A stretch of 63,551 bases of DNA, the filler included, from Collodictyon triciliatum (Eukaryota), in assembly GCA_043381765.1 (NCBI GenBank). It is 22 parts of 22 records of this genome, joined end to end, with 100 filler letters (N's around TTAATTAATTAA, not from the genome) between each part and the next. Parts side by side here need not be neighbours in the genome. Positions count along the whole stretch, not along the records: positions 20,936 to 23,608 come from JBHJMP010008468.1; 21 more parts are not named here. One strand, written 5' to 3'. The stretch's first letter is position 1; each line of letters opens with the position of its first letter. The notes under the pieces are model-generated. The model was given only the letters and a program-made list of their open reading frames with translations, was not told the origin of the DNA and made no database searches. Positions 21,430 through 22,813 of the stretch are shown piece after piece. The position numbers and the translations under genes were made by a program.

Positions 21430-22813
21430 TCAAGAATTCAGTTTGTTTGCTTTCTGAGCGATTGCATTCTTGTCTCTATATCGATTAAAGATACTCTTGA
21501 TGTCTCAAACTGCTGATTCTCTTCAAAAGTCCTGAGACCAAAAGAAATAGCACTTTGTAAATCTGTTGCCATGTATATACCTGAAGGCATTGTACTTTTT
21601 TCTCTCGCGCAAGAGTATTTCGTGGTTTTTAAGAGATTTGCTATCATGTCTTCTTTGGTGTGCCACGGAACGTAATTTCTTACCTGTCTCATCTGCCATG
21701 TAAGCCAAATTAAACTTGCCTGCGTCCACTCTAACTATTTTTTTTTTTGTCGCTAATAATGATATCTGCTCTACGTAAAGTTGATCTATATAAACATAAT
21801 CTTGGGGTTTTTTTTTTGATTTACTTGAATTTTGGATTTGAAATACCTTTCTTTCCGAACAAAAATGACACCGCCAAGCCGTCTGTTTGTATCATGAATT
21901 TCATATTGTAGTCCCTTTGACGAATGACCCTCTCCTTCATTTCAAAGAACTTATTCCATAGGGTCTCTTCGCATCCTGATATATTCTTCATTTAATGGTG
22001 TTTTTCCAAATAATACCAATAGACCTATCAAACATGCAGTATTTAGAATAATATGACATGGTATATTGTTAGTTCTTATAGAGATTGATTGAAACAGTTT
22101 GGTTCCAACATCCTCAAAAATGCGATTCATTTAAATCAGACATTGTATGCACTTGTTTGGATTGACTTTGGCGTCATATTCGATACCTTTTACGATATCG
22201 CTGGGAATAATACGATGTAAATGTATTTTAGCATATCCTTTATATTTTTCAGGTATTTCGAGTTTCTCGAAGATGGCTTTTCTAACTTTCGTAACTCTGC
22301 CTTATTAATAGCTTCCGTAATATTCTCATCTTTAGGAACTGTTTGATTTATAAAGCGCAGTAACCTCTTTACAAAATGTTTGTTAATGTTAATATGATAA
22401 GCTGTTAACATTTGCTTCGCCAAGTACGTAATGCATGAGACAGTCCAACCTACGGAAAGCGCTCTTCTTGGGACAAAAGGAATCGAAAATCACTGAGATA
22501 AAAAGTCATCATTTCATCTCATTTCTGTTTTTTTTTTTTTTAATCTTGTGAGTCTACCTTGTGTAACTATTCCGACTGTCTCTAAAGCGTACAAAAAAAC
22601 ATTTCATCGATTGTTGGGAGTTGTGATTTCAATACGTAACACCTTGCAAAATGATAAGTGTCTATCCAAATTATGACATAATAAAACCGTGTCGTTGATT
22701 TTGTCATAGTCATCCGCATTCTTTACAATAGACTTTAAAGATGTTTTCACATTTCGATAGTCTGGTTTCACAGACTTTAGATTCTCAGACTCAAGGCGTT
22801 TTCTTTTCTTCAT
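21430..22813 (-). pseudogene. Degenerate Fanzor1 (TnpB-derived RuvC nuclease), frameshifted and internally deleted
   Basis: Collinear Fanzor1-type blocks across frameshifts: YRNVKTSLKSIVKN...KINDTV; IDTYHFARCYVL...LPTIDE; YLAKQMLTAYHININKHFVKRLLRFIN; KLFQSISIRTNNIPCHIILNTACLI; WNKFF...IQTDGLAVSFLF (TDG 21878-21886); IVRVDAGKFNLAYMAD (RuvC-I Asp 21724-21726); QRRHDSKS; RDKNA (RuvC-III, 21463-21477). No introns. Confidence 0.85.

What the first reader, a model, noticed from the sequence alone, without database searches (positions are those of the whole stretch)
21430..22813. Fossil Fanzor1 RNA-guided nuclease split across frameshifts and missed by the ORF track
Seen: four short minus-strand ORFs and the unlisted frames between them join into one collinear, intronless protein. 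It has an N-terminal KTSLKSI block, YLAKQM...HFVKRLLRFIN, the TDG..VS motif, RuvC-I (VDAGK, canonical DPG) and RuvC-III (RDKNA). Only ~250 nt separate RuvC-I and RuvC-III, so RuvC-II and the Zn-ribbon appear deleted. Knowledge: Fanzor1 proteins are eukaryotic TnpB/Cas12 relatives carried by transposons and giant viruses. Inference: the blocks resemble the Fanzor1 type I recall from Nucleocytoviricota. This copy is dead, but it suggests a Fanzor family, perhaps with intact copies, in this genome.
Basis: partly seen in the sequence, partly recalled or inferred. Interest (0 to 1): 0.85.

Follow-up and report, generated by a model that had tools for sequence, protein, structure and literature searches.

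The report
Dead Fanzor1 nuclease gene copy
This stretch is a broken, internally deleted copy of a Fanzor1 gene (the eukaryotic relative of the RNA-guided nuclease TnpB). It belongs to a many-copy repeat family and is a real but ordinary transposon fossil.

Summary
A profile of 31 full-length relatives matches seven minus-strand pieces between 21299 and 22828. The matches are collinear, with E from 2.5e-16 to 1.3e-7; the best hit elsewhere in the window is E 0.29.

The relatives are Fanzor1. At E up to 0.01, P0007 and P0104 match only the three solved Fanzor1 proteins, at 1e-20 to 1e-28.

Against the closest intact relative found, P0104 (648 aa), the copy shows these lesions:
- 9 frameshifts and 3 in-frame stops.
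- No counterpart for residues 451-587. That stretch holds GDWS, the alternative catalytic Glu, TSK and three of four zinc-ribbon cysteines.

Contigs from public runs diverge from the window at 21471 in both directions, which fits a deletion there.

- The true RuvC-III is RDFNSAINI at 21401-21427, just outside the given span.

The repeat unit runs from about 21200 to 22875. It recurs as 260 contigs at 80-99% likeness in one run.

The nearest large family sits in mariner-type elements of giant-virus contigs. The window's own clade is separate.

This scan holds 1453 Fanzor notes on other DNA. None matches this family by sequence.

The parts
21200..22875 (-). Approximate extent of the repeat unit (ends known only to about 60 nt)
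   Evidence: contigs of runs X3 and X6 at 80-99% likeness cover bins 21201-22875. Depth is zero in 21000-21133 and 22876-23000 in all 4 runs; X3 has 0.39 in bin 21134-21200.
21305..22813 (-). Decayed Fanzor1 reading frame, from ATG 22811-22813 to the end of protein homology
   Evidence: P0104 aa 1-450 map to 22813-21465 (248 of 443 identical) and aa 588-642 map to 21472-21305 (33 of 55 identical). Nine frameshifts near 22666, 22605, 22525, 22517, 22428, 22294, 21992, 21805, 21585. Stops at 22452, 22133, 21823. One search gives profile E-values.
22727..22747 (-). N-terminal KTSLKSI block. It follows the basic start MKKRKR.
   Evidence: S26 and L27 are invariant; K24, K28, S29 and I30 are nearly invariant in A1.
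22346..22426 (-). YLAKQMLTAYHININKHFVKRLLRFIN block
   Evidence: top PDB hit of this piece is SpuFz1, E 0.083, over this motif; family consensus PYLATQMHT.I.NNLKEHF.TRLLRFIN.
21866..21886 (-). QTDGLAVS block
   Evidence: T320, D321, G322 and S326 are invariant in A1. Searches show the alignment.
21709..21735 (-). RuvC-I motif VRVDAGKFN. The catalytic Asp codon is 21724-21726. The family's DPG reads DAG here.
   Evidence: D373 and P374 are invariant in A1.
21471..21590 (-). Clade-specific linker ending in SLIDIET. It is the last stretch before the deletion.
   Evidence: aligns to P0104 aa about 410-450 (SGISLASDLQEAKSF..VSLIDLET).
21470..21471 (.). Junction of the internal deletion. P0104 aa 451-587 are absent: GDW521, E555, T558, S559, C562, C565, C584, C587.
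   Evidence: table 7: loose ends at 21468-21473 in both directions in X1, X2, X3 and X6. Read on the minus strand by hand, they continue as ELSKHNSCTV after ..IDIET and as KKLYRCLIC before KECNRSES. Searches support the gap.
21463..21477 (-).
   Evidence: frames. Searches place the true motif downstream.
21401..21427 (-). True RuvC-III motif RDFNSAINI. The last zinc-ribbon Cys codon lies upstream at 21464-21466.
   Evidence: E 3e-9 to 9e-7 against six relatives, in a 651-nt search space. E 1.3e-7, profile positions 572-610. R581, D582, N584 and N588 are invariant in A1.
21185..21304 (-). Structured 3' tail with hairpins at about 21268-21341 and 21231-21258. It sits where a Fanzor guide RNA would be encoded, but homology to one is not shown.
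   Evidence: MFE -45.6 kcal/mol, z -3.0, 3 of 200 shuffles fold as well (fold of 21185-21350); no nhmmer match to the viral 3' element.

Best explanation
Window 22813 to 21305, minus strand, is a pseudogene copy of a Fanzor1 gene. It lies inside a repeat unit of about 1.7 kb (about 21200-22875) that occurs in many diverged copies.

Intact members of its clade, such as P0104 (648 aa), carry the full Fanzor1 set:
- a basic N-terminus;
- REC-like blocks;
- RuvC-I DPG (D364);
- GDWS in place of the canonical RuvC-II Glu;
- the alternative Glu in EFRTSK (E555);
- a four-Cys zinc ribbon;
- RuvC-III RDFN (D604).

By homology to tested Fanzor1 enzymes, such a protein would bind a guide RNA transcribed from the 3' end of its own element and cut matching double-stranded DNA. 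This step is inferred, not shown here.

The window copy cannot do this. It has about nine frameshifts, three in-frame stops and a 137-residue deletion. The deletion removes the alternative Glu, the TSK motif and three of four zinc ligands. The copy is a neutral fossil.

Shown: homology, collinearity, the lesions, the deletion junction, multi-copy status. Inferred: nuclease activity of intact relatives, and how the unit moved.
For: -: 7 of 2306 six-frame pieces hit the family profile, E 2.5e-16 to 1.3e-7. All are at the locus and collinear, and profile positions 427-571 are unmatched.
- all 89 proteins tested give collinear tblastn hits at the locus; 34 of 89 also hit the C-terminal block.
- P0007 and P0104 match only solved Fanzor1 chains, 3 of 3 hits each, E 1.6e-20 to 2.1e-28.
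- lesion count against P0104.
- loose ends at the junction, and single-base gaps in other copies at 21991, 21993, 21824, 21818 and 21587. Each lies within 20 nt of a frameshift place. One search also laid 260 contigs of run X6: 11 at 99% or more, 54 at 95-99%, 95 at 90-95% and 100 under 90%.
- the window copy groups with P0103, P0104 and P0105 (SH-aLRT 100).
- motif positions in P0104.
Against: - Pfam found nothing Fanzor-related in any of the 8 single pieces.
- The first word-based search with the 122-aa piece found nothing.
- Of 5 pieces sent to the PDB search, only 1 gave weak Fanzor1 hits, E 0.083 and 1.4. The identification therefore rests on intermediates.
- Local Pfam gives PF07282 only below its cut-off for P0007, P0014 and P0040. 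The precomputed family PF26935 is not in the local copy, so its name is unknown to me.
- Several frameshifts lie at A-runs of 10-14 bases and could in part be assembly errors.
- The exact frameshift count depends on the alignment: 7 with P0022, 9 with P0104.
- No guide RNA, transposase or terminal repeat was found in the window.
Confidence: 0.9

Rival explanations
1. The copy lies in a fragment of an endogenised giant virus rather than being a host-genome transposon fossil.
For: - The nearest large family sits on giant-virus contigs: 29 loci, contigs up to 254 kb.
- The physical contig around the element is only 20936-23608, bounded by linkers. Its neighbourhood is therefore unknown.
Against: - 260 contigs spread from 80 to over 99% likeness in one run. 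This looks like an old multi-copy repeat.
- Scans of viral contigs for the window's own clade found no close relative. With P0104, 0 of 36 stretches encoded a relative. With alignment A3, 5 loci were found at only 28-32% identity.
- The flanks are A/G-rich microsatellites.
- No viral hallmark gene was seen, but only one short contig could be judged.
Confidence: 0.07
2. The gene is intact in the organism, and the breaks are sequencing or assembly errors or short introns.
For: Some frameshifts sit at long A-runs (near 22525, 21805, 21745). A GT..AG stretch of 49 nt at 21532-21580 would mend one frame change.
Against: - Three in-frame stops lie away from homopolymers.
- A 137-residue gap has junction loose ends in four runs.
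- The GT and AG of the candidate intron are other letters in most other copies (21579 in 144 of 182 depth in X6, 21532 in 111 of 221).
- Only 56% identity to the closest intact relative.
Confidence: 0.02
3. The motif matches are chance in AT-rich DNA.
For: Single pieces gave no Pfam hit.
Against: Seven collinear profile hits down to E 2.5e-16, with nothing below E 0.29 elsewhere in the 63.5 kb.
Confidence: 0.01

Closest known systems
Solved Fanzor1 nucleases: Guillardia theta Fz1 (9cer), Parasitella parasitica Fz1 (9cf0), Spizellomyces punctatus Fz1 (8gkh)
   Same: Same protein family. P0104, of the window's clade, matches them at 2.1e-28, 2.7e-24 and 3.7e-23 over N-terminal and RuvC parts. 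The DPG, EFRTSK, zinc ribbon and RD.N motifs are present in P0104.
   Different: The window copy is broken and lacks the part between RuvC-I and the last zinc Cys. The clade has an extra linker of about 35 residues after RuvC-I. No activity or guide RNA was tested.
Fanzor1 carried in Tc1/mariner-type elements of giant viruses (PGv-1 type; Bao and Jurka 2013, PMC3627910, passages read)
   Same: The nearest large family (A1, about 37-41% identical to the window copy) lies in such elements:
- 7 of 9 loci examined have near-perfect terminal inverted repeats of about 30 nt.
- There is a divergent ORF of about 340 aa; it hits DDE_3 plus HTH in 3 of 3 tested.
   Different: The window has no transposase remnant (best tblastn E 0.37). 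It has no such terminal repeat (0 matches at up to 3 mismatches). Its clade is set apart by the longest inner branch of the tree (0.83).
Fanzor1-only multi-copy families such as CMe-1A of Cyanidioschyzon merolae (Bao and Jurka 2013, passage read)
   Same: A unit that encodes only Fanzor1. It is old and diverged (copies 80-99% alike), and at least one clade member is still intact (P0104).
   Different: A different lineage and host. The termini and target duplication are not defined here.
Bacterial TnpB of IS200/IS605
   Same: Shares the motif D..[TS][TS]..C4 zinc finger..RD that defines TnpB and Fanzor (PMC3627910, passage read).
   Different: No TnpB chain appears among PDB hits at E up to 0.01. 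The family has GDWS and the shifted Glu typical of Fanzors (PMC10530073, passage read).

Membership tests
Fanzor1 | Significant sequence similarity to established Fanzor1 proteins rather than to TnpB, Cas12 or Fanzor2 | tested here: met
   The window pieces match the family profile. P0007 and P0104 hit only the three solved Fanzor1 proteins at E up to 0.01. The link is by intermediates: the window pieces alone reach only E 0.083.
Fanzor/TnpB (Bao and Jurka 2013 motif) | D-X(125,275)-[TS][TS]-X-X-C4 zinc finger-X(5,50)-RD | tested here: not met
   The window copy keeps D (21724-21726), one of four Cys (21464-21466) and RD (21422-21427). It lacks [TS][TS] and three Cys, and D to RD is about 100 codons. 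The intact relative P0104 meets the motif: D364, T558, S559, C562, C565, C587, C590, R603, D604. The copy is a member by descent, not an intact one.
Fanzor (Jiang et al. 2023) | Canonical RuvC-II Glu lost and an alternative conserved Glu downstream | tested here: met
   Met in relatives. GDW and an invariant Glu 33-34 residues later occur in A1 (G496, W498, E530) and in P0104 (521, 555). In the window copy this whole part is deleted.
Fanzor1 | Guide RNA (fRNA, also called omega RNA) encoded at the 3' end of the element | tested here: inconclusive
   Viral relatives have a conserved 3' non-coding element with hairpins whose arms change together. RNAalifold found no consensus on that alignment. 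The window tail folds better than shuffles (z -3.0) but has no nhmmer match to the viral element.
Fanzor1 | RNA-guided DNA cleavage | not testable with these tools
   Needs biochemistry on an intact relative.
Tc1/mariner-Fanzor1 composite element | DDE transposase gene and terminal inverted repeats around the Fanzor gene | tested here: not met
   No transposase remnant (7 viral transposases, best E 0.37). No terminal-repeat pattern. No inverted repeat pairs the two unit ends.

The most novel reading that the evidence does not exclude
The window copy, P0103, P0104 and P0105 form a host-resident, transposase-less Fanzor1 clade. It split from the giant-virus mariner-borne Fanzor1 set and multiplied to hundreds of copies in a freshwater protist. 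It still has working members such as P0104 (648 aa), with their own guide RNA in the structured 3' tail.
Probability: 0.25. Interest if true: 0.4.

Novelty: new member of a known kind. Interest (0 to 1): 0.25.

Why it matters
This copy matters little on its own. It is one more dead Fanzor1, a kind of element described since 2013 and noted many times in this scan.

Its modest value is as a pointer:
- It marks a separate Fanzor1 clade related to the mariner-borne genes of giant viruses.
- That clade has at least one intact 648-aa member in public data.
- The repeat family is large enough to allow its ends and guide RNA to be reconstructed once a full genome is at hand.

It also adds a case to the question of gene traffic between giant viruses and their hosts. 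The tree could not be rooted here, so no direction of transfer can be claimed.

Tried and rejected
- **Pfam on 8 single pieces:** no relevant hit.
- **Word-based search with the 122-aa piece, longer proteins:** 42 candidates, none at E 0.01 or better.
- **PDB search with single pieces:** 4 of 5 pieces gave nothing relevant.
- **Second copy in the window:** none by blastn or tblastn.
- **Whole genome:** not held, so no search for paralogues.
- **49-nt GT..AG intron at 21532-21580:** rejected, because both splice dinucleotides differ in most other copies.
- **Weak likeness of 21543-21611 to the RuvC-III block (E 0.03-0.08):** explained as the clade-specific linker, not a duplicate.
- **Guide RNA remnant:** the MAFFT look-alike of the window tail to the viral 3' element did not hold up. 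nhmmer gives no hit there and RNAalifold gives no consensus. No covariance model was built.
- **Rfam and tRNA scans of the window:** nothing.
- **Terminal repeats or a transposase in the window:** none.
- **First tree of 110 rows:** the window copy was a 1.85-long branch at the midpoint and could not be placed. This was resolved only after P0103-P0105 were added.
- **Metagenome scan with P0001:** 2 loci at only 36-42% identity.
- **Viral scans for the window's clade:** no close relative.
- **Runs:** no listed holder is on record as RNA. No run holds more than 0.14 of the sampled words. The habitat and identity of the source organism were not established.
- **Earlier notes of the scan:** none by place or by sequence.

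Full report
**What is in the sequence**

On the minus strand between 22828 and 21299 there are short open pieces in all three frames. Taken singly they gave almost nothing:
- Pfam gave no relevant hit for any of 8 pieces.
- A word-based search with the longest piece (122 aa) found none of 42 candidates at E 0.01 or better.
- Of 5 pieces compared with PDB sequences, only 22193-22489 gave a lead. Its top hit was Spizellomyces Fanzor1 (8gkh, E 0.083) over the motif YL..M.T....N...HF...LLR[FY]IN. Parasitella Fanzor1 (9cf0) also appeared, at E 1.4.

**Bridging to the family**

A phmmer search of that 99-aa piece against 1.84 billion representatives gave 6 hits at E 0.001 or better.
- Two are close fragments: P0001 (62% identical, 2.8e-16) and P0002 (74%, 5.8e-12).
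- One is a 308-aa N-terminal half, P0006.

P0006 matches only the three solved Fanzor1 proteins, at 1.2e-9, 2e-8 and 7.2e-4. It led to 83 full-length proteins of 562-846 aa, out of 1661 candidates. All 83 carry the precomputed family PF26935. That family is absent from the local Pfam copy, so I cannot name it. Three of the 83 also carry PF07282.

P0007, one of these, matches PpFz1 at 6.8e-28, SpuFz1 at 2.9e-25 and GtFz1 at 1.6e-20. Nothing else in the PDB matches at E up to 0.01.

I built a profile from 31 full-length members (A1) and searched all 2306 six-frame pieces of the window.
- Seven pieces hit, all on the minus strand at the locus.
- They are collinear in profile coordinates: 3-51, 133-192, 182-233, 238-286, 293-345, 347-426, 572-610.
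- E-values run from 2.5e-16 to 1.3e-7.
- The best piece anywhere else has E 0.29.
- Profile positions 427-571 have no counterpart.

All 89 proteins then in hand gave collinear tblastn hits at the locus, and 34 of the 89 also hit the C-terminal block. Only one stray hit lay elsewhere (P0006, E 0.004, at 26633-26740).

**The closest intact relative and the lesions**

A last search with P0001 for longer proteins found P0104. It is 648 aa and complete, with these motifs:
- DPG at 364;
- GDW at 521;
- EFRTSK at 555;
- CCNC at 562;
- CLIC-KEC at 584-590;
- RDFN at 603.

P0104 matches GtFz1 at 2.1e-28, PpFz1 at 2.7e-24 and SpuFz1 at 3.7e-23.

I aligned P0104 to the window with my own frameshift-aware dynamic programming script.
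- Residues 1-450 map to 22813-21465, with 248 of 443 identical.
- This stretch has nine frame changes, near 22666, 22605, 22525, 22517, 22428, 22294, 21992, 21805 and 21585.
- It has three in-frame stops, at 22452, 22133 and 21823.
- Residues 588-642 map to 21472-21305, with 33 of 55 identical and no break.
- Residues 451-587 are absent.

With the more distant P0022 the same program gave 7 frame changes and 3 stops. The count therefore depends somewhat on the alignment, and a few changes at long A-runs could be assembly errors.

**The deletion is real**

Contigs of four public runs were laid at 80% likeness or more. They show loose ends at 21468-21473 in both directions. I read these by hand on the minus strand.
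- Contigs that match the upstream side continue after ..SLIDIET as ELSKHNSCTV. P0104 has ..SLIDLETSLSKCNSCTV there.
- Contigs that match the downstream side are preceded by KKLYRCLIC. P0104 has KKVFRCLIC-KEC there.

So other copies hold at least the edges of what this copy lost. The lost part carries GDWS, the alternative catalytic Glu, TSK and three of the four zinc ligands.

- 'RDKNA' (21463-21477) is out of frame and spans the junction. It is half upstream and half downstream sequence.
- The true RuvC-III is RDFNSAINI at 21401-21427. It is preceded by the last zinc Cys (21464-21466) and by ..NRSESKQTEFLT.
- It lies just below the finding's start of 21430.
- The distance from the RuvC-I Asp (21724-21726) to the RuvC-III Asp (21422-21424) is about 300 nt.
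- 'Intronless' stands. A 49-nt GT..AG stretch (21532-21580) would mend one frame change. Most other copies have other letters at both dinucleotides, though (places 21579 and 21532). P0104 also reads straight through this clade-specific linker.

**A repeat family**

In run X6, 260 contigs lie on 21201-22875: 11 at 99% or more, 54 at 95-99%, 95 at 90-95% and 100 below 90%. Runs X3, X2 and X1 add 59, 14 and 3. Nothing lies on 21000-21133 or 22876-23000.

The unit is therefore about 1.7 kb, with ends near 21200 and 22875. It is multi-copy and of mixed age. Other copies have single-base gaps at 21991, 21993, 21824, 21818 and 21587, each within 20 nt of one of the window's frame changes. Those breaks may therefore be specific to this copy. 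P0002 reads partly out of frame, so it comes from another broken copy.

X6 is labelled only as a guess at RNA. I draw nothing about expression, habitat or organism from these runs.

**Relatives in giant viruses**

An alignment-based scan of IMG/VR found 29 loci, mostly on giant-virus metagenome contigs of up to 254 kb.
- In 7 of 9 loci examined, the Fanzor gene sits in a 2.7-3.75-kb element with near-perfect terminal inverted repeats of about 30 nt.
- A divergent ORF of about 340 aa accompanies it. It hits DDE_3 plus HTH domains in 3 of 3 tested.
- This is the mariner-type Fanzor1 arrangement that Bao and Jurka described for PGv-1 (PMC3627910, passages read).
- Their 3' ends are strongly conserved. 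In 24 of 25 loci with the RuvC-III motif, GGTGTAA follows 203-260 nt later; the 25th locus is cut short. There are hairpins whose arms change together.
- RNAalifold gave no consensus on my alignment.

None of this is in the window:
- No transposase remnant: 7 queries, best E 0.37.
- No terminal-repeat pattern.
- No inverted repeat joining the unit's ends.
- No nhmmer match of the 3' element.

The window's 3' tail does fold better than shuffles: -45.6 kcal/mol, z -3.0, with 3 of 200 shuffles folding as well. This is compatible with a guide-RNA remnant, but no more than that.

**Placement**

In a 51-row tree (quick IQ-TREE with the mixture model), the window read-through had X at every break. 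It groups with P0103, P0104 and P0105 (SH-aLRT 100). An inner branch of 0.83, the longest after one of 1.01, separates this group from the other 47 rows. Four of the five other major groups hold giant-virus loci.

The tree is unrooted, so no direction of transfer can be claimed. Rows left out: 63 of the 110 rows were dropped to save time, and L023 and L027-L031 were never used.

Scans of viral contigs aimed at the window's clade found no close relative. With P0104, 0 of 36 stretches encoded a relative. With alignment A3, 5 loci were found at 28-32% identity.

**Context caveat**

The window is a chain of short contigs. A linker of 44 N, TTAATTAATTAA and 44 N occurs 21 times. Spacing is 2765-2776 nt, except for two larger steps of 4283 and 5115.

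The element's physical contig is only 20936-23608. Genes elsewhere in the window are not shown to be its neighbours. These include a Myb domain, a Usp domain and a TMEM132-like Ig domain.

**Mechanism**

Intact clade members should work as tested Fanzor1 enzymes do. The RuvC site is formed by the DPG Asp, the shifted Glu and the RD Asp. Jiang et al. 2023 describe the shifted Glu, intron gain, nuclear localisation signals and a conserved 3' non-coding RNA (PMC10530073, passages read). A guide RNA from the element's 3' end directs the cutting. That is inference from homology. The work of Saito et al. 2023 is recalled, not read here. The window copy lacks the active site and is inert.

**Verdict**

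It is a dead, internally deleted member of a known kind, and interest is low to moderate. I ran one literature search and did not test whether this particular clade is already catalogued. The supplementary tables that might list it were closed.

Noticed in passing
window, 21 places from 2677 to 62063 (for example 20836-20935): Linkers of 44 N, TTAATTAATTAA and 44 N recur at steps of 2765-2776 nt that slowly shrink, plus two larger steps of 4283 and 5115. The window looks like a chain of short contigs sorted by length, so adjacency across linkers is not physical.
   Followed up: partly
L001:1638-4951, and likewise L002, L004, L009, L017, L018, L026: Giant-virus relatives sit in elements of 2.7-3.75 kb. 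These have near-perfect terminal inverted repeats of about 30 nt (TTACACC...TTTAAAACGCCGA), a divergent DDE_3/HTH transposase gene and the Fanzor1 gene.
   Followed up: partly
L001:4812-4952 and 20 other loci (alignment A2): The 3' non-coding region of the viral elements has hairpins whose arms change together (for example CGTGG..CCACA against CTGGAG..CTCCAG). This is probably the guide-RNA scaffold running into the right terminal repeat. RNAalifold gave no consensus on the MAFFT alignment.
   Followed up: partly
proteins of A1, C-terminal tails; loci tails: A tail such as GEKVGQSVDFTVGKA is read in frame in some relatives and out of frame or after the stop in others. The conservation there seems to be of the DNA or RNA rather than of the protein.
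   Followed up: partly
P0004 against P0106: P0004 (121 aa) joins the REC-like block directly to the RuvC-III block of a P0106-like protein. It is another internally deleted Fanzor1 derivative, in a different lineage.
   Followed up: no
window 34798-39810 (-): One open frame of 1671 aa runs from linker to linker. It has a TMEM132-type Ig domain (E 1.5e-11) and serine/threonine-rich repeats. It looks like a large surface protein of a eukaryote.
   Followed up: no
window 20458-20613 (-): A short open piece has a WD40-like signature (..FSPDG..LAVA..D..IRV). It lies on the neighbouring contig, not on the element's contig.
   Followed up: no
window 22559-22798: One 240-nt contig of a freshwater-metagenome run (X1) matches this stretch without any difference. 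This is a hint, not proof, that the same organism or copy is in that sample.
   Followed up: no
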